Source: a virus
DNA: 64,000 nt
IMG/VR virus record: IMGVR_UViG_3300045988_176106
Direction: 5' to 3' (one strand)
The position numbers and the translations under genes are program-made. Below are positions 3,864 through 31,190 of the stretch, in pieces (position 1 is the stretch's first letter; each line of letters begins with the position of its first letter). The notes below the pieces were generated by a model. It made no database searches, was not told the DNA's origin, and was given only the letters and a program-made list of their open reading frames with translations.

Positions 3864-6800
3864 TTAAAAACCAATTGCATCAAATGTATCCATAACTTCT
3901 GACATACTATTTTCTGCATTTTCGCCTAAAGGTATTAGACCTTGACTTTGACCATAAATGGTAAAAATTGGGGAAAGCATACCACCAAAGAATGTATAAT
4001 CCACAATATGTTTAAACCACATTTGGATATCTGCATCACTTAAGTCAACTAAGGCACCTTTATTGTGCATACGTAAAAACTTATTGCACATTTCAAGGGC
4101 ATTGGTGTTAACTGCCCAATTTACAATACGACAAATAGAAACGGCAACTTCTCTTGAATAACCTAAGTCATTCTCGATACTTTCAATTACCTTTTTAACA
4201 CTCTTGTCGTCTTTTGTCATGTTTTTAAGATAGAAGACAGCATGAGAGCTAGCACCACCAGAAACATGTTTAATCGCATTAATTACACGATCTTCAAGAA
4301 CCATTGTGTAAATATGATCATAGGTCGACAAGTCTTCCTCCTTAATGCGAAGTTGAACCTTGCGTTTACGTTCCCACGGCACATAAGATTTAGGATCATT
4401 ATTACATGCCAGCCCATAATATAATTGAACTAACATATAAAATACCCATGCATCATTAGTGCCTGGACCAACTGCATTCTTAGCCATAGCTGATGAACAC
4501 AGAAACTCCATATAGGCATTATCACCAGGATGTTTAGGATAAATTGGAACGTAATACAATTCGTACTTTTTACTCCAATCAACATCTTCAATAGATGAAT
4601 ATTCGGAAAGAAGAAAATCTTCATCCCACTTCTTTTGATCTTCAGTAAAATATTCCAATTCAAATTGAGCCATCATTTCTTGCTGCTCAATTCCTGGGAT
4701 TGTACTAATTTGCAATAAGTCGCCATCGTTATCACTATGGCTACGTTTTACAATTTCAATAGAAACTAAAGCACAATATAAATTACCTTGTACATCCAGA
4801 TAGTCATTGACTGTCATTCCATAATTTTCTTGAAGATAGTCATTGAATTCATCAATTCCCCAAAGTTGGGAAATGATCATCTGTGAACGCCATAAAAATG
4901 GATTACGCAAAGTAAATGCATTTAATGGACGGAACTGGTCAAGCATTGCCTCTTCAGGAGTTTTATCATTTGGCTTGCCATAAATATATTCACGAATACT
5001 CTCAAGAATATTACGATCAAGAATTACGACTTTACCTTCAGGAACATATTTATCATGAACCTGTTTAAGATTTACACCTTTAAGGCTTGGCTGAATAAGG
5101 GATTTAACATAAGTTTGACCACCTAATTCAGTGCGATACAGCATTGATTTAATTGCATTTAAATAGCCACTCCATGCAGAAGGGCGCTTTTGATTACGTT
5201 CATTACGATGCGGGGCAATAGTAAAATACTGACTAGGGCCAGTAATTGCAGCACGAATGATTTTAGACAATTCAATAAGCATAGTTGGATATACGTATTG
5301 ACCATCATTTTGTTTACCGCAGAATTTATTCAAAATCTCTGCAGAAGGCACACGAATACTTGTACCAGAACGTACCTTACTTAAGTCGATATAAAACCCC
5401 TTATTGAATTCAGGATCCAATAATTTACTGCTAGTAGGAATAATAGCAGAACGACTCAAAACTAAGTCTTGTTCATTAAACATTGATTTTAATTCAACCA
5501 ATGTATAAGATGGATAATTGTCAACGTATTCAAATACACGACCTTCGTCTGATAAGATTTTTGCCAATTCTTCAACAATAGCCTTATCAGTTTTATCAAT
5601 ACAATTGTCTAAAATATACTGACCCAATGGAGAGTCTTTTGTCTGACAAATATATTTCAAACAATTAAATGACATGCCTTGACTTTTAATCTTGGCAAAA
5701 TGGCTACCTAATTCAGTATAAGAATACTGAACTAATCCATATTTAACGTTTTCGATTACGATAATTTCATCATCGTAACCATCAATACGCTTAACACGTT
5801 TTTCATATGTAGCAGTTGGCAATGAATCAACAGCAGCATTGATTTCCTCTTCGTTTAAACTATCAAGGTAATCTTTGCCATTATTATAATAGCCATATTT
5901 AAATGCAAAAGCAGCTTGAGCAAGACGAATAGTATTCATTTTGCCTTTAAGACTATTAATGCCGGCTACAATATCCACATCGAGGACTTTATCTTCTTTG
6001 CCGTCTTCGTGAATTTTAATTTTGCCACAACTACGCATAGTCTTAGTAACGCCTTTCAAGCCTGTTTGACTTGTAATGCGGGCATTACCTGCTTTATAAT
6101 AGGCAACATAATCAATACGAGCAGACCCATTATATCCTGATTCTTCAATAGATGTAATCTGAATGTGATCTACCATATCAATGTAAATTGACTCGCCACC
6201 ACGTGAGCCAATTTTAATATATCCACCTTTGCTGTAAATAGTTTCACCAACTTTTACGTCAATTTCGTCAAATTCAGTTTCAATATGACGAGGCGTGAAT
6301 ACAATTTCTTTGCCTACTTTTGGCGATACTTCAATTTCACCGCCAACTAAACGATACGATTCAAGCTCGATATCGTTATAAACCATAACTGCATCAACCA
6401 AAGTATTATCTTTGGTTACTAATTCGCCATCCTTTTCAATTACATCTTGTAAAAAGATAGCTTTAGATGGATTACTTACACCAAATGCATTGCCATTAAG
6501 ATGAGTCTTAAATCGTGCAGGTAAAGCTTGTCCAACTTTAAACAAGCTTGAATAACCTACAAAACCACCATTTTCGTCTCTGAATACTTGGAATCCAGGA
6601 GCTTGAAACTCTTTACCATTTTTAGAAATGATAATTTTATTTGATTCTGCAAGTATAGATTCACTTCCAGGAAGTACATTAAAGTACATCGCAGAAGCTT
6701 TAATGGCGCGATCAGATGGATTAAACAAAATTGGCAAGGCATCACCCATCACTTTGTCGTGATGCAAATATGTTAGAACCTTACTGTACTCATTATAAGG

Positions 6801-7250
6801 AGAAATAATAACAAGTTCAGAAGATTCTTTCAACGCAGCATTATATGCATTACTTGTTACATACAATACATGGTTCTTAACATAATTGATATCTTTACGG
6901 ATCAATTCAGTAAATAACTGATCATATTTAAATAAAGATTCAAGGCGTTCATATAGCATCATAAACATAAGTTCATGATGACTCATCAATTCAATATCAG
7001 AATTTTTATCGATATGCTTGGTTGCAAACAGAAATTCAGGCCAATTCAATTTAGGATCATAAAATGATTTAGGAATCTCAATTGTAGTTGGTTCTGAAAA
7101 TTCGTTTACAATTTCCATTGCAATACGATCTTGCAACAATTTCCAATTAAGTCTTGGATCTTGTGGCAAATTCTTAGAATAAATATCGAAAACTTCCGCA
7201 ACAGTTGCATTACCATCAATAATCGGAATATCTTTCAAACGAATATACAT
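3864..7250 (-). CDS. Single-chain two-barrel (beta-like + beta'-like) DNA-dependent RNA polymerase, copy 1
   Basis: 1128 aa. GNARITSQTGLKGVTK...VLDVDIVAGINSLKGKMNTIRL resembles beta GDKxxGRHGNKGV...VDIVLNPLGVPSRMNIGQ (KG at 6048-6065). RNPFLWRSQMI...SHSDNDGDLL resembles beta' RxPxLH...NADFDGD (DNDGD = 4719-4733). Confidence 0.8.
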   Translation of the reverse strand: MYIRLKDIPIIDGNATVAEVFDIYSKNLPQDPRLNWKLLQDRIAMEIVNEFSEPTTIEIPKSFYDPKLNWPEFLFATKHIDKNSDIELMSHHELMFMMLYERLESLFKYDQLFTELIRKDINYVKNHVLYVTSNAYNAALKESSELVIISPYNEYSKVLTYLHHDKVMGDALPILFNPSDRAIKASAMYFNVLPGSESILAESNKIIISKNGKEFQAPGFQVFRDENGGFVGYSSLFKVGQALPARFKTHLNGNAFGVSNPSKAIFLQDVIEKDGELVTKDNTLVDAVMVYNDIELESYRLVGGEIEVSPKVGKEIVFTPRHIETEFDEIDVKVGETIYSKGGYIKIGSRGGESIYIDMVDHIQITSIEESGYNGSARIDYVAYYKAGNARITSQTGLKGVTKTMRSCGKIKIHEDGKEDKVLDVDIVAGINSLKGKMNTIRLAQAAFAFKYGYYNNGKDYLDSLNEEEINAAVDSLPTATYEKRVKRIDGYDDEIIVIENVKYGLVQYSYTELGSHFAKIKSQGMSFNCLKYICQTKDSPLGQYILDNCIDKTDKAIVEELAKILSDEGRVFEYVDNYPSYTLVELKSMFNEQDLVLSRSAIIPTSSKLLDPEFNKGFYIDLSKVRSGTSIRVPSAEILNKFCGKQNDGQYVYPTMLIELSKIIRAAITGPSQYFTIAPHRNERNQKRPSAWSGYLNAIKSMLYRTELGGQTYVKSLIQPSLKGVNLKQVHDKYVPEGKVVILDRNILESIREYIYGKPNDKTPEEAMLDQFRPLNAFTLRNPFLWRSQMIISQLWGIDEFNDYLQENYGMTVNDYLDVQGNLYCALVSIEIVKRSHSDNDGDLLQISTIPGIEQQEMMAQFELEYFTEDQKKWDEDFLLSEYSSIEDVDWSKKYELYYVPIYPKHPGDNAYMEFLCSSAMAKNAVGPGTNDAWVFYMLVQLYYGLACNNDPKSYVPWERKRKVQLRIKEEDLSTYDHIYTMVLEDRVINAIKHVSGGASSHAVFYLKNMTKDDKSVKKVIESIENDLGYSREVAVSICRIVNWAVNTNALEMCNKFLRMHNKGALVDLSDADIQMWFKHIVDYTFFGGMLSPIFTIYGQSQGLIPLGENAENSMSEVMDTFDAIGF

Positions 7251-7834: not shown

Positions 7835-8026
7835 CTAGGAGTCTAGTTGGAGAGATGGCACTAATAAAACTTTTTCAGAAAACATGCAATTAATATAATT
7901 AGCACATTTTCCACAACACGTAGTTGCACCTGTGTCAATAATCAAATCATCAACACTTTTATTCTTATCAATATAATCATTATTGATAGTGCTGGTGCTA
8001 ACATTATTACAAACACATACAACCAT
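7835..8026 (-). CDS. Bfd-like [2Fe-2S]-binding domain protein
   Basis: 63 aa. VCVCNNVS...(x28)...CCGKC matches the C-x-C...C-x-x-C pattern of bacterioferritin-associated ferredoxin. Confidence 0.65.
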   Translation of the reverse strand: MVVCVCNNVSTSTINNDYIDKNKSVDDLIIDTGATTCCGKCANYINCMFSEKVLLVPSLQLDS

Positions 8027-8100
8027 TATTATACCTCGATAAAGAATTTATATAAAATGCCATATCAATAGCATCTTGTATAAATAAATTAAATGGAGAA

Positions 8101-8132
8101 TGCGCCGGCGATCACATAAAGTGCGCCGACGC
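8101..8132 (-). terminator. GC-rich hairpin closing the RNA-gene cluster
   Basis: Minus RNA GUCGGCGCAC-UUUAU-GUG(AU)CGCCGGC, i.e. a CAC/GUG closing like the family, with a 2-nt bulge. Confidence 0.5.
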
Positions 8133-8139
8133 TATTCAG

Positions 8140-8212
8140 AGACAAACATAGGACTTGAACCTATATCATGGGTTTATATAACCCTATATGTTACCAATTA
8201 CAACAGTTTGCC
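8140..8212 (-). tRNA. tRNA-like gene with irregular anticodon arm (anticodon UAU/Ile if the loop is read UAUAUAA)
   Basis: Minus strand GGCAAAC-UG-UUGU-AAUUGGUA-ACAU...AUAGG-UUCAAGU-CCUAU-GUUUGUC-U. It has a 7-bp acceptor stem, a D-loop with GG, a canonical T-arm and a total of 72+1 nt. The anticodon stem needs a register shift (AGGGU/ACCCA with an A-A mismatch) and lacks U33. No CCA is encoded. Confidence 0.5.
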
Positions 8213-8215
8213 TAA

Positions 8216-8765
8216 AGTCAGGGGTACCCTGAGGTTGAGCTATAAGTGAATCGGCGAGTTAGGAGGGCCTATCACATTCAATGAACACATCTAGGATATA
8301 GCTCTTTATCCTAGAAGGGCCGATATAGTACCTCGGCAAGGTTTACGCGACCCGACAGCCCTTAGCATTTTGCTATTGGCAGTCTAGGGCATTTGCTACT
8401 ATCCAATAAGTATAGTAGTTTAACGACATTAGCATCCAATACCCATTTAACGATTGCTAATTGGTCGTATGGCTCAGGGTAGGAGACGGACCCATTATTG
8501 CCATAAATGCTATTTTGGGTCAACCCATAGCTGGATTTCTAGGACTACCCGGGTTTTACAACTACATTGAACTTATCCTAGCTCATCCAAATATAGTTGA
8601 TTTAATAGCACGTCTTAAGACGTACTACATAAATTTGTTTTCATCAGGCCGTCTTTCCGTTGCTGATGAACCAAATAGCAATTAATACAAATTGCTATGC
8701 TGTCAAGAAAGGACAATGGTATGCACCATTAATAAGGTTAAGCACCTTAGAGCTGCGGGGGAGAA
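8216..8765 (-). ncRNA. Candidate large structured RNA of unknown class (boundaries approximate)
   Basis: No credible ORF, and G+C visibly higher than the flanks. At least 13 local helices of 5-9 bp on the minus strand, e.g. 8715-8730, 8675-8698, 8640-8670, 8606-8627 (contains a G-U that is C-A on the plus strand), 8532-8589, 8468-8505, 8429-8460, 8396-8418, 8358-8390, 8291-8314, 8218-8232. Confidence 0.45.
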
Positions 8766-8866
8766 ATAATAAAATTATAAAGGAGTAAACACATTCAGAA
8801 ACCTTAAATTCTATGGAAGTCGCCACAAAATTCGATTCTTAAGGTATTTAAAACTTATGCAAAAAG

Positions 8867-8880
8867 TCGGTATATACCGA
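8867..8880 (-). terminator. Hairpin plus U-run ending the tmRNA transcription unit
   Basis: TCGGTATATACCGA followed on the minus strand by CTTTTTGC. Confidence 0.5.
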
Positions 8881-9470
8881 TATATGGATAAATTATTTCC
8901 ATGAAAAATATGCTTGTTTAAATTTCACTAGTTGGTAACTAGGTATGCCCAAACATATTTACTCTTTTATAATTGCTGGTTACGATTCCAGCTCTACCCA
9001 ATCGTAGACGATTACGAAACTTACTGAAGCACTAGCCGCAGTGTTAGAATTCTCGGACAGTTTCTGTTACCAGGTACTGTCCAAACCCTGTACATTTATG
9101 CTCAACTACCTAAATTAGGCAGCGGCGCGTACCATGTAAACATTATCGTTTGCATTTATTTTAAATTTTGCTTTTACGAAGCAACTCGTGCCGAGTAATT
9201 ATCCCTATTCATCGCTTGTCGAATTCCAATACAGCCCCATCAGAAGACATCTCATAAGACATTTTAACTCAATCACGATAACGTAATTAGGTTAAAAATA
9301 AACTGTATGGAATCGCTAACTCTTTTCAGAGTATAAATATCTTCGAAATGTCTTTTGGTGGAGCTGGCGGGAGTCGAACCCGCGTCCAAACAATCTTAAT
9401 GAATAACACCTTTACGGCAATTAATGAGCAAAAACTCATTAAGAAGTGTATACAATTATACTTTGGCCCA
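8881..9470 (-). ncRNA. ssrA: Circularly permuted (two-piece type) tmRNA gene: acceptor piece ~9356-9425+, intervening segment 9239-9355, coding piece from 9238 downward
   Basis: Minus strand 9387->9356 reads GGACGCGGGTTCGACTCCCGCCAGCTCCACCA (T-arm, acceptor 3' strand, CCA). 9238->9218 reads GGGGCTGTATTGGAATTCGAC (tmRNA 5' end, with GGGGCUG/CAGCUCC pairing including G3-U). P2-type pairing joins 9189-9219 with 9390-9419. A PK1-like pseudoknot and a tag ORF follow. Outer boundaries are uncertain. Confidence 0.8.
9115..9153 (-). other. tmRNA tag reading frame: ANDNVYMVRAAA*
   Basis: Resume codon GCA at 9153-9151 is preceded by AAAUAAAU. The frame reads GCA AAC GAT AAT GTT TAC ATG GTA CGC GCC GCT GCC TAA, and the stop lies in the loop of a CUGCC/GGUAG hairpin, as in known tmRNAs. 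Confidence 0.7.
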
Positions 9471-9600
9471 GTTAAAAAAAGTCGTTTGATATATCCGATG
9501 CATGATTACATGCTTATTGAGCTATTAAGAGTATACACTTTTTAATAAATTTTTACACAAAAATATTCATTTATATTTCAATGTGTTACAAGATTTTGTT

Positions 9601-21600: not shown

Positions 21601-24600
21601 TTAGAATCCCATGTCTTCCAATACTTCAGCTTGCTCAGCAGCAGTTGCAGACTCAGCACGTTCAGCTGCCACGTTGATGGCTTGAATAACCTTCAGCGAT
21701 TTAGAAGCTTTCTCAGCAGCTTCAAAGAAGTAGCCGATAGCACCATAAATGGAAGCTTTAGGAGCGGTAGAATGCTTCACGCCACGAGACTCAACTGTTT
21801 TGAAGAATCCATCAAATGTACGGCCGATGCTCATAGTTGCATCAACATAGTCTTTGATTTCAGCTTCTGTACCCTCAATGCTAGAATAAACAACTGAGTT
21901 AAGATTAGCCATGTATGAACCAAAGCCCATACGAGATAACGCTAAACCAGTTGCACGTACACCATAATGGTTGTAGTAGTTGTACTCACCATCAGAGTAC
22001 ACTTTACCTAACTGAACCATATTGGAGTGCTCAATGATACGAGGAGCTTTTTCTGCAATAATTGTAGCAATACGACGCGCTACTTCTTTATTGCCGATAG
22101 TAGACTCGATAGCTTCTTCCCAGGCATCTGCCAAAGAAATAGAGTCATCGTGTGCATTACGCTCAGATGCACTGAACAGATACATCATATCAATCAATGA
22201 GTATCCGCGGTTCTCGTGTTTCATTTGGCTAATAGCACCGTTTTGTACTGCCACACCCATGCTGGCAATAGCAATACGTGCTTCCTCTTTAGTCAGGCCA
22301 TCTTTTAATGCAGTCATGGCTTCAAACAGAGGAATGCTTTGTACAAGAGCATTGGTATACTTACCAGTGTCTTGTTTTGCCTTAACAAGTTTCTCAACAC
22401 CAGCTTGGAATTCTTCCACTGGATAGCATTTAATAGTGCTATCAGTAATAATATCCAAACCTTTCAGGAGAGACTCTTCTTCATCAGCCACATATGCAGC
22501 CTGATACGCACCGATAAGATTATCTTTGCCCAGAGTGTGTTCTGCTGTCCAGGTTTCATATCCTTCCAAACCTTTAGCGAAAAAGACGGTAGCACGGTCT
22601 CCGTCAAAGTCATCTTGGTTAGATAATGCCAGCATTGGAGGAATGCGCAATACAGATTCTTCCAAGATTCCGAAAATCCCGTATTCTTCTGTACTAGTCC
22701 AGAATGGGGTACCAGATTTGGCTGACACCAACTTAAATGACTGCAGCATCAGTTCTGGGTATTTAATATAACCCAGCTGACCATCCTCTTGAATACCCTT
22801 GCGGACAGTCTTATTAGTTGTGTATACATTTACAAGATCCTTTGTTTGTGGAACCAGCACCATATTGGCATTGCCAGTCATACGCATTTTAGTAATGCGA
22901 GCGCCCAAAAACAATTGTTCCAAAGTCAGGATGTGTTTAGCATATGTCAACACAGCACCTTTAGTGTTTTGGAACTTGATCATTTGATAGATGGACATCA
23001 AAGTGCCAACAAGTTTACCACCGATTAAGCCCTCAGACAAATCTTCCTCATTAGGAAGAATGATTTGGCCCTTCAGTTTATTCCAACCTGGGAACACAAA
23101 ATCGTAACCGGCAAACTCAATAGTAAATCCTGTATTGATCAGACCTACCCAACCAATAGAATCATCACCATTCAAAAGACGATCGATTGTATTAGCGATC
23201 ATTTGTTTGTCCTTACCGTATGATTTGAAGTTTTCAGCCTTCAATGTACCATTGCCCGCATAGGCAATAGTGTTATCAAACAGTTCTTTCAAGATAAACT
23301 TGATTTCACCCTCTTCGTAAATACGAGGAGAGAGATCTTTAGTCATCACTGAGGACTCAACAAGGTATGAGTTGTCGATGTTTGCTTTCAGGAATGACAC
23401 CAAAGCCTCTTCGCCAAATTGATCCTTAATAGAATCAAGGGTCAGCAGAGAGATACGTCCCACTTTCTTGGCTTTAGTAATCAAACCTTGACGTTTCATA
23501 TCCAGAAGCGCCTCACCAACCTTGAAATCAGGGTTAGTTTTAATGCTTTCAACAAATGACTTCATTACAGATGTAGCATTCAATGCTTCTACCTCCTCAT
23601 CTGTAAGGCTTTCTTCATCAATTTGTTCGACACCGAGTAATTCAAACTCTGCCTCATCTATTGAAGCATGTTTCTTAATCTCCTCTTGTTGAGACAGAAA
23701 CTTGTCAGTATACTCCCAACCCTCAAGAGCATAGAATGAAGTTGCATGCAGCTCCTCATCAATAACGATTGCCTTGTAAGTTAATGCGCCAATCTTAACA
23801 TCTCTAACAAAAGAAGCCAGCTCATTATTTACTTGTGTACGGAACTCAGCATCGTTGTACAAACTAATGATAAAGTCCTTCAGAGTTTTACCATTATTTA
23901 CAAGGTTAAATCCAAGACCAACTGATTTTGATTTCAGTTTACCAGAGATATAATCTACTCCCAACTCTTTTGAGGCAGATTCAAAGCTGTCATCAATGTA
24001 AGCTGCAACACCTTTAACATGGTTCTCAGAGATAACACGCATAGCACCATATTTCAGGTACTCCTCTTTTGAAGCATGAATGGCGCCACCAACAATACTG
24101 GTGTACACGCTATCCTCAAAGCGGTCATAGTCTTTAGGCATATCAACACCTACGATAACTGCAACTTTCTTAGTGCCGATGCTAACAGACTTATGATCTG
24201 ATGGATTCAGACCAAACCTTGCAATAGATTTGGTTGCATCATTGATGCTGTAAGTTGTATCACCATCAAAAACGGCAGCCATAGAGTCTACAGCGCCCTG
24301 ACTAAATGCACCAATAGATGCTAATTTGGCATTGATATCCGGACTCAAGTTCATAGAATCCAACTCTCCAGATTCAATCTCCCAACCCTGTAAGCGATAC
24401 TGCGCTAATTGTTGGCGCGGCATTACATGAGAAACAGGTGCGTAACGTAAGCCAGGACGTTGACGCATAGCGTCTAAGATGTCCTCGATCTTGGTTTTGC
24501 TATCTGAAGACAGTTTAATTACGAACATAAAGAACGCCTCCGCAGAGGTAATAATCTCTTTGCGGAACACGGTTTCTTTTCTTTTCTCTACGACAACCAC

Positions 24601-24951
24601 TTCTTTATTCAGCATAAAGAATTTGTTGCAGAAGCTTTCATATCCTGAGCACAGGGTACGATTGATCGCATAATTGCGACCCTCAGCAAGTTTAAGTGTA
24701 GACAATAATTGAAGTGCTGCCTGACTATTTTTGCCCTTCATAAAGGTAATAAATGCTTTACCCTTTTTAGAGACAGACTTAATGCGCATTGCTACTTCAG
24801 TACCGTGTACAGAGATCTTAACGTCTCTATGCTCTGTAGTGGCTACAGTGCCAATAGCTGATACCAGTTGATTTGCCACATCTTTAATCGCATCTTTACG
24901 ATCAGAGGTCAAAGAGTTGAATAAGTTGATTGTGTTAATAGTGTTAGCCAT
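21601..24951 (-). CDS. Single-chain two-barrel (beta-like + beta'-like) DNA-dependent RNA polymerase, copy 2
   Basis: 1116 aa. GAMRVISENHVKGVAAY...LGVDYISGKLKSKSVGLG is beta-like (24007-24021). KYPELMLQSF...LRIPPMLALSNQDDFDGDRATVF is the beta'-like NADFDGD equivalent (22597-22614). AAGGA Shine-Dalgarno. Confidence 0.8.
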   Translation of the reverse strand: MANTINTINLFNSLTSDRKDAIKDVANQLVSAIGTVATTEHRDVKISVHGTEVAMRIKSVSKKGKAFITFMKGKNSQAALQLLSTLKLAEGRNYAINRTLCSGYESFCNKFFMLNKEVVVVEKRKETVFRKEIITSAEAFFMFVIKLSSDSKTKIEDILDAMRQRPGLRYAPVSHVMPRQQLAQYRLQGWEIESGELDSMNLSPDINAKLASIGAFSQGAVDSMAAVFDGDTTYSINDATKSIARFGLNPSDHKSVSIGTKKVAVIVGVDMPKDYDRFEDSVYTSIVGGAIHASKEEYLKYGAMRVISENHVKGVAAYIDDSFESASKELGVDYISGKLKSKSVGLGFNLVNNGKTLKDFIISLYNDAEFRTQVNNELASFVRDVKIGALTYKAIVIDEELHATSFYALEGWEYTDKFLSQQEEIKKHASIDEAEFELLGVEQIDEESLTDEEVEALNATSVMKSFVESIKTNPDFKVGEALLDMKRQGLITKAKKVGRISLLTLDSIKDQFGEEALVSFLKANIDNSYLVESSVMTKDLSPRIYEEGEIKFILKELFDNTIAYAGNGTLKAENFKSYGKDKQMIANTIDRLLNGDDSIGWVGLINTGFTIEFAGYDFVFPGWNKLKGQIILPNEEDLSEGLIGGKLVGTLMSIYQMIKFQNTKGAVLTYAKHILTLEQLFLGARITKMRMTGNANMVLVPQTKDLVNVYTTNKTVRKGIQEDGQLGYIKYPELMLQSFKLVSAKSGTPFWTSTEEYGIFGILEESVLRIPPMLALSNQDDFDGDRATVFFAKGLEGYETWTAEHTLGKDNLIGAYQAAYVADEEESLLKGLDIITDSTIKCYPVEEFQAGVEKLVKAKQDTGKYTNALVQSIPLFEAMTALKDGLTKEEARIAIASMGVAVQNGAISQMKHENRGYSLIDMMYLFSASERNAHDDSISLADAWEEAIESTIGNKEVARRIATIIAEKAPRIIEHSNMVQLGKVYSDGEYNYYNHYGVRATGLALSRMGFGSYMANLNSVVYSSIEGTEAEIKDYVDATMSIGRTFDGFFKTVESRGVKHSTAPKASIYGAIGYFFEAAEKASKSLKVIQAINVAAERAESATAAEQAEVLEDMGF

Positions 24952-30539: not shown

Positions 30540-31190
30540 CCTTAACACACAAGCGCATAAATTGAGAGTATAATTCGCCATGTTAACTCGTTGAGGTTAG
30601 TATCTAGTCGGGATAAACTACGGCATCGGAACTAAAAGAGAGTTGACCTTATACCAAGTAGCTCATAGAATAATCGGTAGAGGCCGGTAGCGAAAGTATA
30701 ATGATCTCCCAAGATGTGGGCAAGCCTAGCTAGGGAGGTATCGAAAACTGTTTGTTGAAGTGGCGTAATTCTCCCTGTGTAAGCTCCCTTACTAAAAGTA
30801 ATACATAAAGAATTATGAAAGTTGGGCAGTATAAAAATAATGACCTGTTGCAAATAACGGATTATCCTCGAAATCGAGCCGTATGGTCAGACAGACAACT
30901 TTAGGGTTATATAGATAGTGCAATGAGATATAACCTAGTAACTTAAAGTTACTCGACTACAAATATAATGAACCAGAACTTAACAGAGTGTTGCGAAATA
31001 ACGACACTTGGAGTAATCAATATCCTGTTAGTTAAGACACGACAAAGTGTAATAGCTTACTTCTGATGATCACTTGGATCACTGCTTGATAATCGCAAAG
31101 GAAGTTACGAAAGTGGAACTGGGAATAACATGGCAGATACAGCTATATCTTTTTAGATGAAAGCCTTGCTTTGCTAGGCCTAATTGTATC
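30540..31190. ncRNA. Candidate structured RNA of unknown class (strand tentative, plus favoured)
   Basis: A 1.1-kb gap without a credible ORF. Helices at 30706-30737 (CTCCC/GGGAG), 30905-30935 (8 bp), 30938-30952 (6 bp), 30987-31008 (has a G-U valid only on the plus RNA), 31067-31081, and 31103-31120 (GAAA tetraloop). Confidence 0.35.

What the first reader, a model, noticed from the sequence alone, without database searches (positions are those of the whole stretch)
8216..8765. ~550-nt helix-dense ORF-free RNA candidate wedged between the tmRNA gene and a tRNA-like gene
- The stretch has no credible ORF and is visibly G+C-richer than its surroundings.
- On the minus strand it contains at least 13 local helices of 5-9 bp, including nested ones. 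Examples are TGGAT-gag-CTAGGA...TCCTAG-aa-ATCCA at 8532-8589 and TATGGC...GGGT...ACCC...GCCATA at 8468-8505.
- One helix (8606-8627) uses a G-U pair that would be a C-A mismatch on the other strand. This agrees with the minus polarity of the flanking RNA genes.
- It is bounded upstream by a hairpin plus U-run (8867-8880) and downstream by the tRNA-like gene and a GC hairpin (8101-8132).

Large ornate RNAs such as GOLLD and ROOL are known to sit next to tRNAs in phages. I cannot recognise any family from memory, so this could be one of those or something new.
Basis: partly seen in the sequence, partly recalled or inferred. Interest (0 to 1): 0.65.

Follow-up and report, generated by a model that had tools for sequence, protein, structure and literature searches.

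The report
New circularly permuted phage structured RNA
The ORF-free stretch encodes a large folded non-coding RNA of a family found only in one group of uncultured ~180-kb phages and absent from RNA databases; in this phage the gene's parts are in rotated (circularly permuted) order, which is rare for natural RNAs.

Summary
Window 8213-8766 (minus strand) has no conserved ORF, is G+C-richer than its flanks, and folds better than dinucleotide shuffles (z = -4.65). It matches none of 4227 Rfam families, even at E<=10.

Relatives occur only on 107-190 kb phage contigs and in none of 185,579 bacterial or archaeal genomes. They share an invariant core: CCUUUCUUGACAGC, a variable hairpin, then a hairpin presenting CGACGGAAAGACGGC. 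Both hairpin stems covary strongly (13 of 18 pairs with double changes).

The gene has three layouts:
- **Type A (~450 nt):** core at the 3' end, before a terminator.
- **Type C (~250 nt):** a minimal form.
- **Type B (this window, ~555 nt):** core at the 5' end, fused to the sequence that starts type A. This is a circular permutation.

tRNA adjacency is not conserved. Position upstream of a small ferredoxin gene and a single-chain RNA-polymerase-like gene is conserved.

I read it as a new trans-acting structured phage RNA. Its function is unknown. A cis-regulatory leader is the main rival.

The parts
8861..8880 (-). Hairpin plus U-run that ends the upstream permuted tmRNA transcript. It marks the upstream boundary of the RNA gene.
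   Evidence: Terminator-like site UCGGUAUAUACCGA + CUUUUU. Invariant in the five close relatives.
8774..8779 (-). Putative -10 box (TATAAT; TATGAT in L003/L004). The transcript would start near 8766.
   Evidence: Read from the sequence. No good -35 was found and the promoter scan did not list it, so this is an inference only.
8733..8749 (-). Helix H10 (UAAGGU/ACCUUA). It has the same sequence and the same position before M1 as H10 of type A member L014.
   Evidence: In type A, H10 covaries: CAGGAU/AUCCUG versus CUAAGGU/ACCUUAG, 3 of 6 pairs with double changes. Model R1 aligned L001's copy in the H10 columns.
8716..8729 (-). Small hairpin AUGGU-gcau-ACCAU, specific to type B.
   Evidence: RNAalifold on 8 type B sequences. 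It hardly varies, with only one A-U to G-U change.
8699..8712 (-). Core motif M1, CCUUUCUUGACAGC. It is invariant in types A and B; type C has CCUUUCUGACAGC. Its GAC is predicted to pair with the GUC at 8425-8427. Its CUUUC is complementary to the GAAAG of the M2 loop.
   Evidence: The GUC/GAC pairing was predicted by RNAalifold on type A. None of these bases vary, so neither pairing can be tested by covariation.
8675..8698 (-). Helix H11, a variable hairpin (AUAGCAAUU/AAUUGCUAU here).
   Evidence: 7 of 9 pairs show changes on both sides across types A, B and C, and 96% of cells are paired.
8640..8670 (-). Helix H12 (UUCAUCAG/CUGAUGAA) presenting the invariant M2 loop CAACGGAAAGACGGC (8648-8662). 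Inside the loop, a GAAAGA hexaloop is closed by G-C and C-G.
   Evidence: The H12 stem reads AGGG/CCCU, AAGGA/UCCUU, UCAUCAG/CUGAUGA or ACGGC/GCCGU in different members. 5 of 7 pairs have double changes. The inner C-G becomes U-A in type C.
8628..8641 (-). AAAACAAAUUUAUG, the motif that begins the type A RNA (AAAACAAGUUUGUG). Here it is fused directly to the 3' strand of H12. This is the permutation junction.
   Evidence: nhmmer with the type A profile places type A positions 13-35 at type B positions 143-165, directly after the core hit. It is the only exact match to AAAACAARTTTRTG in the 64-kb window. My own arithmetic puts the chance expectation at about 0.002 exact matches. The rotation scan peaks here.
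8605..8629 (-). Helix H1 (UGUAGUACGUC-uuaa-GACGUGCUA), the counterpart of the variable first hairpin of types A and C.
   Evidence: L003 has a 16-nt insertion at the hairpin tip. G-U/G-C and C-G/U-G alternations occur.
8424..8604 (-). Domain of about 180 nt specific to type B. It contains hairpins 8509-8531 (GCUAU..AUAGC) and 8468-8505 (UAUGGC..GCCAUA, loop CCGUCUCCU), plus a variable hairpin at 8424-8467.
   Evidence: RNAalifold on type B. Double changes occur at GGGU/ACCC (G-C to A-U in 3 of 8) and in the 8424-8467 hairpin. No counterpart was found in types A or C.
8396..8427 (-). Junction GUCGUUAAAC followed by helix H2 (CUACUAU/AUAGUAG). It corresponds to AGUCNUUAAAUAA + H2 of type A.
   Evidence: Read. 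H2 has U-A to C-G double changes within type B and A-U to G-C within type A.
8352..8386 (-). Hairpin UAGACUGCC...GGGCUGUCGG. It is shorter in other type B members (GAUCGC/GCGGUC). It is flanked by the AGAC...GUCGG bases shared with type A.
   Evidence: The window has an 11-nt longer loop, and the stem sequences differ between members.
8314..8337 (-). Helix H7 (GCCGA/UCGGC) followed by CCCUUC. It corresponds to CCCCG/CGGGG (or CCGAG/CUCGG, UUGGC/GCCAA) + CCCCAUUC of type A. There it encloses a long variable hairpin.
   Evidence: One of the three H7 pairs found by RNAalifold has C-G to G-C in 5 of 12 type A sequences.
8273..8314 (-). Hairpin CUAGGAU..AUCCUAG (8291-8314) and the H8-like hairpin GUGUUCAUUGAAUGUG (8273-8288).
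   Evidence: The 12-mer GUGUUCAUUGAA is shared exactly with type A member L012 at the equivalent place. L002 has a 25-nt insertion at the hairpin tip. In type A, H8 reads GUGU/GCAC, GCAC/GUGC or ACAC/GUGU (by eye).
8213..8272 (-). 3' tail and terminal hairpin (CAGGG-ua-CCCUG, 8217-8232). The RNA would end where RNase P cuts the tRNA 5' end.
   Evidence: The terminal hairpin has double changes: CAGGG/CCCUG versus CAGAC/GUCUG. The 3' end is inferred from the tRNA position and the known action of RNase P.
8139..8212 (-). tRNA-Ile (anticodon UAU), probably co-transcribed. It is a variable accessory and not part of the RNA family.
   Evidence: ARAGORN. Rfam tRNA 40.9 bits. It is absent from L001-L004, where other sequence replaces it, and present in L035.
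8102..8132 (-). GC-rich hairpin followed by a U-rich run. It is the probable terminator of the RNA (+tRNA) transcript, upstream of the ferredoxin gene.
   Evidence: Nearly invariant in all five close relatives. The simple terminator scan did not list it.

Best explanation
Window ~8766-8213 (minus strand) is the gene for a previously undescribed, phage-specific, highly structured non-coding RNA of about 555 nt.

**Transcript (inferred).** It is made from its own promoter just after the tmRNA terminator. It is co-transcribed with tRNA-Ile, freed at its 3' end by RNase P, and the transcript stops at the 8102-8132 hairpin.

**Core (the elements are shown; the GUC/GAC and CUUUC/GAAAG contacts are inferred).**
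- A short long-range helix, GUC/GAC.
- The single strand CCUUUCUU.
- A variable hairpin, H11.
- Hairpin H12, which displays an invariant GAAAGA loop. That loop can pair with the CUUUC of the single strand.

**Family layouts (shown).** Around this core different phages carry nothing (type C), a ~330-nt multi-helix domain on the 5' side (type A), or the rotated arrangement seen here (type B). In type B the core comes first and is fused directly to what is the 5' end of type A. The gene is therefore a circular permutation of the type A gene.

**Mode of action (inferred).** The permutation keeps the elements but destroys their order relative to the terminator and the downstream genes. What is selected is therefore most likely the three-dimensional fold of a stable trans-acting RNA, such as a protein- or ligand-binding scaffold or RNP component. 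A co-transcriptional switch is less likely. Its target is unknown. Candidates are the phage's own single-chain RNA-polymerase-like enzyme encoded just downstream, or the translation apparatus.

**Confidence by sub-claim.** A real conserved structured RNA family: about 0.9. Circular permutation: about 0.75. Trans-acting rather than a leader: about 0.6.
For: **It is a structured RNA**
- It is ORF-free and G+C-rich, with z = -4.65 against shuffles.
- The unfitted MAFFT alignment of 12 type A sequences (40-99% identical) was scored with its RNAalifold structure. 17 of 54 pairs have double changes, against 6.8 in shuffles (0/500). The covariation score is 0.227 against 0.128, and <=0.066 when partners are slid.
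- The hand-registered core alignment of types A, B and C gives 95.6% paired against 67%. 13 of 18 pairs have double changes. The score is 0.657 against 0.196 (0/500), and slid <=0.133.
- Indels fall at hairpin tips.
- G-U pairs are frequent and would be mismatches on the other strand.

**The family is real and phage-specific**
- The core pattern occurs in 12 viral and 16 metagenome loci, all that are long enough being 107-190 kb contigs.
- It has no match in 185,579 genomes. The looser pattern gave only chance-level hits there.
- A covariance model built from type A only finds type B at E 2e-7 to 6e-5 and type C at E 0.005-0.27.

**The gene is permuted**
- The type A 3' block maps to window 8626-8818, the 5' end of the RNA.
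- The type A 5' leader motif follows it immediately.
- The other shared motifs stay collinear.
- A rotation scan gives the best global alignment at the end of H12 in 6 of 8 comparisons.

**It is probably not a leader**
- In type B the core lies more than 500 nt, including a tRNA gene, from the terminator.
- L009 keeps the RNA but has lost the ferredoxin gene.
Against: - There is no expression data of any kind. The promoter, 5' end and 3' end are inferred.
- Outside the core, type A and type B share only short motifs. Sequence profiles alone find only the core with confidence, so the homology of the large domains rests on motif order.
- The core alignment used for one search was registered by hand and leans towards the structure.
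- Within type B the sequences are close (roughly 70-90% identical over the full-length pairs), so most helices of the window RNA never vary.
- The GUC/GAC helix and the CUUUC x GAAAG contact are invariant and therefore untested.
- In every layout the RNA is upstream of, and on the same strand as, the same operon with a terminator in between. That also fits a leader.
- The function is a guess.
Confidence: 0.65

Rival explanations
1. It is a cis-acting leader, either riboswitch-like or a protein-dependent attenuator. The conserved core senses a signal and sets read-through of the following terminator into the operon of ferredoxin, cell-wall hydrolase and RNA-polymerase-like protein.
For: - In all three layouts the RNA lies directly upstream of this operon on the same strand, with an intrinsic terminator in between.
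- In types A and C the terminator starts only about 15-65 nt after H12.
- No separate promoter for the ferredoxin gene was recognised, so downstream genes probably depend on read-through.
- An invariant loop and strand in a pseudoknot-capable arrangement is typical of aptamers. This last point is from general knowledge.
Against: - In type B the core is moved more than 500 nt away from the terminator, with a tRNA gene in between in two members. That breaks any aptamer-to-expression-platform coupling while the elements are kept.
- L009-type phages keep the RNA without the ferredoxin gene.
- 250-555 nt is far larger than known riboswitch leaders.
- No alternative anti-terminator pairing was found.
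Confidence: 0.2
2. In this phage the locus makes two RNAs rather than one: a ~140-nt core RNA (8626-8766) and a separate ~410-nt RNA (8213-8641). They either assemble in trans, like two-piece tmRNA, or act independently.
For: - Type C shows that the core with one hairpin is a viable unit of about 250 nt.
- The neighbouring tmRNA is itself a permuted two-piece gene.
- The junction motif AAAACAA.UUU.UG is the start of the RNA in types A and C.
Against: - There is no terminator or processing signal between H12 and the junction motif.
- The motif is not a repeated promoter-like element in the window.
- The predicted GUC/GAC pairing links the two halves.
Confidence: 0.1
3. It is a very diverged member of a known large RNA family: GOLLD, ROOL, RNase P RNA, a group I or II intron, OLE, HEARO or raiA.
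For: It has the size, many helices, phage origin and proximity to a tRNA reported for GOLLD and ROOL (PMC5737381).
Against: - No Rfam 15 family matched at E<=10 on the window RNA, nor at E<=5 on types A and C.
- tRNA adjacency is not conserved.
- No flanking exons or ORF exist for an intron.
Confidence: 0.03
4. It is not an RNA at all but a DNA-level element such as an origin, a packaging site or a promoter cluster. M1 contains TTGACA.
For: M1 contains the sigma-70 -35 hexamer, and the H3 loop of type A contains TTGACT.
Against: - No conserved -10 follows the hexamer.
- The sequence that follows it covaries as a hairpin, with G-U pairs that exist on one strand only.
- Terminators lie on the same strand.
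Confidence: 0.03

Closest known systems
GOLLD and ROOL (large ornate RNAs of phages and bacteria, function unknown)
   Same: It is several hundred nucleotides long with many helices and pseudoknot potential. It is phage-borne, has no known function, and in this window sits next to a tRNA and is probably co-transcribed with it (GOLLD/ROOL context as described in PMC5737381).
   Different: - It has no sequence or structure match to their covariance models.
- tRNA adjacency is not conserved in this family.
- The family is confined to one clade of ~170-190 kb uncultured phages.
- It has a minimal ~250-nt form.
- Oligomerisation, as shown for GOLLD and ROOL (PMC12286853), was not tested.
Circularly permuted (two-piece) tmRNA genes
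   Same: The same structural elements are encoded in rotated order in some lineages and in standard order in others. This implies that the fold, not the transcription order, is selected. A permuted tmRNA gene lies immediately upstream.
   Different: It has no tRNA-like domain, no tag reading frame, and no match to any tmRNA model. ARAGORN and Rfam end the tmRNA at 9024-9053. Whether the permuted RNA is cut into two pieces is unknown.
Riboswitch or attenuator leaders
   Same: In types A and C a conserved, pseudoknot-capable core sits just before an intrinsic terminator and a downstream operon.
   Different: It is much larger. The permuted form separates the core from the terminator. No known aptamer family matches.
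HOLDH RNA (Rfam RF02997), another orphan RNA in the same window at 30582-30952
   Same: It is also a large orphan structured RNA carried by this same phage.
   Different: The sequences look unrelated by eye, and neither M1 nor M2 occurs in HOLDH. It lies on the other strand and in a different genomic context.

Membership tests
Any Rfam 15 family (includes GOLLD, ROOL, HEARO, OLE, raiA, RNase P, group I/II introns, 6S, SRP, riboswitches) | Match to the family's covariance model (sequence plus secondary structure) | tested here: not met
   At gathering score the window gave only HOLDH, tmRNA and tRNA, all at other positions. With permissive filters, at E<=10 on 7900-9100, the only non-trivial hits were short chance matches to eukaryotic miRNA/snoRNA models. 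Nothing appeared at E<=5 on type A or type C.
GOLLD / ROOL-like ornate phage RNAs | Frequent location next to tRNA genes | tested here: not met
   A tRNA follows the RNA only in the window and L035. L001-L004 have none. No tRNA or tmRNA matched in the type A loci scanned.
GOLLD / ROOL-like ornate phage RNAs | Homo-oligomeric assembly | not testable with these tools
   This needs cryo-EM or native gels. The feature is known from PMC12286853.
tmRNA (including the permuted two-piece form) | tRNA-like acceptor/T-arm domain and a tag-peptide reading frame | tested here: not met
   ARAGORN and the Rfam tmRNA models cover 9024-9479 only. Type A and C members occur in loci without any tmRNA.
Circularly permuted RNA genes (as a class) | The same conserved elements in cyclically rotated order relative to the standard form, with the old ends joined | tested here: met
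   - The type A 3' block is found at the type B 5' end by a model built from type A only.
- The type A 5' leader motif is fused to H12.
- The remaining motifs are collinear.
- The rotation scan peaks at the junction in 6 of 8 comparisons.
Riboswitch / transcription-attenuation leader | The sensor domain directly abuts or overlaps the expression platform (terminator) of the regulated gene | tested here: inconclusive
   This is met in types A and C, where the terminator starts about 15-65 nt after H12. It is not met in type B, where the core is more than 500 nt and a tRNA gene away from the terminator.
Group I / group II intron | Insertion within a host gene with flanking exons, plus the catalytic core (P3-P7 or domain V) | tested here: not met
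   No interrupted gene flanks the RNA, and there is no Rfam intron match.

The most novel reading that the evidence does not exclude
A new class of large phage RNA whose pseudoknotted invariant core is an active site or a specific binding pocket. It would be a ribozyme, or an RNA cofactor or regulator of the phage's own single-chain two-barrel RNA polymerase encoded just downstream. Its gene has been naturally circularly permuted in one lineage, next to a permuted tmRNA gene. That would give a natural experiment on fold-versus-order constraints in a large RNA.
Probability: 0.2. Interest if true: 0.85.

Novelty: new variant of a known kind. Interest (0 to 1): 0.7.

Why it matters
- **A new orphan class.** Large structured bacterial and phage RNAs of unknown function are few, and each has led to unexpected biology. 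Examples are the OLE, GOLLD, ROOL and raiA RNAs, and the HEARO RNA, which turned out to be a guide RNA. This adds an orphan class that Rfam does not hold.
- **A ready map for experiments.** Three natural architectures exist: minimal, extended and circularly permuted. Together they show which parts are essential (M1-H11-H12) and which are peripheral.
- **A rare natural permutation.** Circular permutation of a large RNA gene is rare in nature. It argues that the folded RNA, not the act of transcription, is the functional entity.
- **A testable link.** The constant link to a gene for a single-chain RNA-polymerase-like enzyme in uncultured ~180-kb sewage- and human-associated phages suggests a role in phage-controlled gene expression. 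The core motif gives a simple marker for this phage clade.

Tried and rejected
- **Sequence searches in GenBank phages.** blastn with type B, A and C queries found no match.
- **Type B profile against distant relatives.** nhmmer found nothing. The family link was found by reading the syntenic gaps.
- **Bacterial and archaeal genomes.** The strict core pattern gave 0 hits. The loose pattern gave 20 hits that are chance: about 17 are expected by my arithmetic, and they fall in G+C-rich contexts that look coding, without H11 or M2 context.
- **AAAACAAGTTTGTG as a general phage promoter.** Rejected. There is one exact copy in 64 kb, and near matches are at or below chance.
- **TTGACA in M1 as a -35 box.** Rejected. 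There is no conserved -10, and the following sequence covaries as an RNA hairpin.
- **A leader-tail helix joining the 5' and 3' ends of types A and C.** Only A-G/C-U is constant and there is no consistent compensation, so I do not claim it.
- **A degenerate second copy of the core in the 3' tail of L001-type members.** The tail contains GACGGAAAG, but model R1 finds nothing there. Left as an observation.
- **A local GAC/GUC hairpin versus a GUAUAC/GGAUAU helix in type A.** This stays ambiguous.
- **Helix H9 (CAUGG/CCAUG).** It would form a pseudoknot with H10, but only one-sided changes were seen, so it is tentative.
- **MAFFT alignment of the core across types.** It misplaced H11. I replaced it with an N-padded hand registration.
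- **The 1128-aa protein.** Pfam, PHROGs and PDB sequence searches found nothing. Only the fold search was informative.
- **Acinetobacter phage ME3, the nearest cultured relative.** It has no RNA-sized gap at the syntenic place.
- **Literature.** Searches, and the first 200 of 408 supplementary files of PMC8040213, gave no description of this RNA.
Full report
**1. The observation**

The window is part of a large uncultured phage.
- Its terminase is 42% identical to that of Acinetobacter phage ME3, and a 1128-aa protein is 29% identical to an ME3 counterpart.
- On the minus strand lie a permuted tmRNA (about 9024-9479), the candidate region, and tRNA-Ile(UAU) at 8139-8212.

- It has no ORF above 74 aa.
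- It is G+C-richer than its flanks: 0.44-0.475 over 8100-8500 against about 0.28-0.34.
- On the minus strand it folds 4.65 standard deviations better than dinucleotide-preserving shuffles. On the plus strand the figure is 3.11.
The upstream hairpin plus U-run at 8880-8867 is a terminator-like site.

**2. Not a known family**

cmscan against all 4227 Rfam 15 families gave nothing for this stretch at gathering score. With permissive filters at E<=10 it gave only short chance matches. The same held at E<=5 for the two other forms of the family found later. GenBank phages hold no similar DNA.

**3. Close relatives**

The flanking 1128-aa protein led to four IMG/VR contigs with 94-99% identical protein.
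- The RNA region in them is only 84-92% identical. It differs by insertions at hairpin tips, replaced hairpins and several compensatory changes.
- The tRNA is missing from these four. About 95 nt of other sequence replaces it. Only L035 shares the tRNA.
- tRNA adjacency is therefore incidental.

**4. The wider family**

Homologs of the 1128-aa protein at about 45% identity lie on 86-186 kb contigs without a tmRNA or tRNA in the loci scanned. A profile of the window RNA found nothing in them.

The ORF-free gap at the syntenic spot, just upstream of a small BFD-like ferredoxin gene, nevertheless carries two motifs identical to the window RNA. These are CCUUUCUUGACAGC (M1) and ACGGAAAGACGGC (M2), separated by a variable hairpin.

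Pattern scans gave the following.
- The strict M1-M2 pattern hit 12 viral loci and 16 metagenome loci, but no bacterial or archaeal genome.
- A looser pattern added six members of a short form.
- In genomes the looser pattern gave only chance-level hits.

In all there are about 33 distinct sequences. Those on contigs long enough to judge come from phage contigs of 107-190 kb in sewage and human-associated samples.

**5. Three architectures**

- **Type A (17 distinct sequences, 40-99% identical, about 450 nt).** The elements run in this order:
  - leader AAAACAAGUUUGUG and variable hairpin H1;
  - AGUCNUUAAAUAA, then H2 and H3 (loop AUUGACUAC);
  - H4, enclosing a conserved segment;
  - H7, enclosing a long variable hairpin, then CCCCAUUC;
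  - H8 and H10;
  - M1, H11 and H12 (M2 in its loop);
  - a short tail and an intrinsic terminator.
- **Type C (6 loci, about 250 nt).** A similar leader, one long hairpin, M1 with one U fewer, H11, H12, a tail and a terminator.
- **Type B (the window and 9 other distinct sequences, about 555 nt).** The elements run in this order:
  - H10, a small hairpin, M1, H11 and H12;
  - then, with no spacer, AAAACAAAUUUAUG and H1;
  - a type-B-specific domain of about 180 nt;
  - GUCGUUAAAC and H2, then a hairpin flanked by AGAC...GUCGG;
  - H7 and CCCUUC, two hairpins including GUGUUCAUUGAA, and a tail with a terminal hairpin.

**6. Evidence for conserved structure**

*Unfitted alignment.* On the MAFFT alignment of 12 type A sequences with the RNAalifold structure, 95.9% of cells pair, against 90.3% in shuffles.
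- 17 of 54 pairs show changes on both sides, against 6.8 in shuffles (0 of 500 reach it).
- The covariation score is 0.227 against 0.128.
- Sliding the partners by 1-3 columns drops the score to <=0.066.

*Core alignment.* MAFFT misplaced H11 across types, so I registered M1-H11-H12 of types A, B and C by hand.
- 95.6% of cells pair, against 67% in shuffles.
- 13 of 18 pairs have double changes.
- The score is 0.657 against 0.196 (0/500), and slid <=0.133.
- This alignment leans towards the structure and should be read with that in mind.

*By eye.* These helices change sequence completely while staying complementary.
- H4 reads GGCGAUA/UAUCGCC, CCGGCGA/UCGCCGG, GCACC/GGUGC, GGGAAC/GUUCCC or CUGGUGAC/GUCACCAG.
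- H7 reads CCCCG/CGGGG, CCGAG/CUCGG or UUGGC/GCCAA. Type B has GCCGA/UCGGC.
- H8 reads GUGU/GCAC, GCAC/GUGC or ACAC/GUGU.

*Strand.* Frequent G-U pairs, the better z-score and the terminators all place the RNA on the minus strand of the window.

*Untested parts.* The GUC/GAC long-range helix and the complementarity between CUUUC of M1 and GAAAG of the M2 loop never vary. Covariation therefore cannot test them. Helix H9, which would make a pseudoknot with H10, has only one-sided changes.

**7. Evidence for circular permutation**

- A covariance model built only from the 3' block of type A finds type B at E 2e-7 to 6e-5. In the window the hit is at 8626-8818, the 5' end of the RNA. The same model finds type C at E 0.005-0.27.
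- nhmmer with the type A profile places the type A leader directly after that hit.
- The leader pattern has one exact match in the 64-kb window, at 8628-8641.
- The other shared motifs follow in type A order.
- I aligned type A globally to every rotation of the type B RNA. The best score falls at rotation 115-120 in 6 of 8 comparisons. H12 ends at position 121.
- The type A ends are thus joined in type B. New ends open between H8 and H10.
- Outside the core the similarity is limited to short motifs. I therefore rate the permutation as likely, about 0.75, not proven.

**8. Genomic context**

In all layouts the RNA lies upstream of, and on the same strand as, a small BFD-like [2Fe-2S] ferredoxin gene and a cell-wall hydrolase gene (Pfam). 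These are followed by the 1128-aa gene.
- The 1128-aa protein has an invariant SHSDxDGDLL motif.
- A confident AlphaFold model of it (pLDDT 81.8) resembles both the beta and beta' subunits of cellular RNA polymerases, and also QDE-1. The scores are E about 1e-5 with low TM-scores.
- I infer a single-chain two-barrel RNA polymerase.
- L009-type phages keep the RNA but lack the ferredoxin gene.
- The cultured relative ME3 has no RNA-sized gap at this place.

**9. Interpretation**

The permutation preserves the elements but moves the invariant core from just before the terminator to more than 500 nt upstream of it. In two members a tRNA gene also lies in between.
- That is hard to reconcile with a co-transcriptional switch. 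It is easy to reconcile with a stable folded RNA that acts in trans, as for permuted tmRNA.
- I therefore favour a trans-acting structured RNA whose invariant loop and strand form a binding or active centre.
- The leader/attenuator reading remains the main rival, at about 0.2, because of the constant position before a terminator and the same operon.
- The actual function is unknown.
- I found no description of this RNA in the literature.

**10. Verdict**

This is a new family of large structured phage RNA with a natural circular permutation.

Noticed in passing
window 30582-30952 (+): A full-length HOLDH RNA (Rfam RF02997) scoring 322.4 bits, just above the family's gathering score of 319.4. 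It is a second orphan structured RNA in the same phage and shows no evident relation to the RNA studied here.
   Followed up: partly
window ~9024-9479 (-): A permuted (two-piece type) tmRNA gene with tag peptide ANDNVYMVRAAA (ANDDVYMVRAAA in L003/L004). It is present in type B phages only. It sits immediately upstream of an RNA gene that is itself permuted.
   Followed up: partly
window 8139-8212 (-); L001 9036-9113: tRNA-Ile(UAU) is a presence/absence polymorphism. The window and L035 have it. L001-L004, L030 and L036 instead carry ~80-95 nt of other sequence beginning with the hairpin UUCCGUC..GACGGAA. Its GACGGAAAG 9-mer repeats part of core motif M2, and its CCGUCUUU is complementary to M2's AAAGACGG. 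Model R1 does not recognise it as a second core.
   Followed up: partly
window 3864-7250 (-): A 1128-aa protein with no Pfam, PHROG or PDB sequence match. It has an invariant DxDGD motif. Its AlphaFold model resembles both RNA polymerase beta and beta' subunits and QDE-1, so it is probably a single-chain two-barrel RNA polymerase. In phage ME3 the matching region is annotated as three separate proteins, one of them called an endonuclease in the RefSeq copy of the record.
   Followed up: partly
window 7835-8026 (-): A 63-aa BFD-like [2Fe-2S] ferredoxin gene directly downstream of the RNA in all three architectures, except in L009-type phages, which lack it.
   Followed up: partly
L016 1588-2183 (+): In a more distant phage (polymerase-like protein 38% identical) there is an ORF-free gap a few genes upstream of the polymerase-like gene. 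It holds a look-alike: CAGGAU..AUCCUG, AUGAUACUCCUU, UUAGUUAAAUAAG, GUUGUCCUUUAC and a terminator. Model R1 does not detect it. It may be a fourth, diverged architecture.
   Followed up: no
window 8044-8087: An AT-rich near-perfect palindrome lies between the RNA terminator and the ferredoxin start codon. It gives spurious weak matches to a eukaryotic miRNA model on both strands.
   Followed up: no
window 21601-24951 (-): A second very large protein (1116 aa) has no Pfam or PHROG match. It was not examined further.
   Followed up: no
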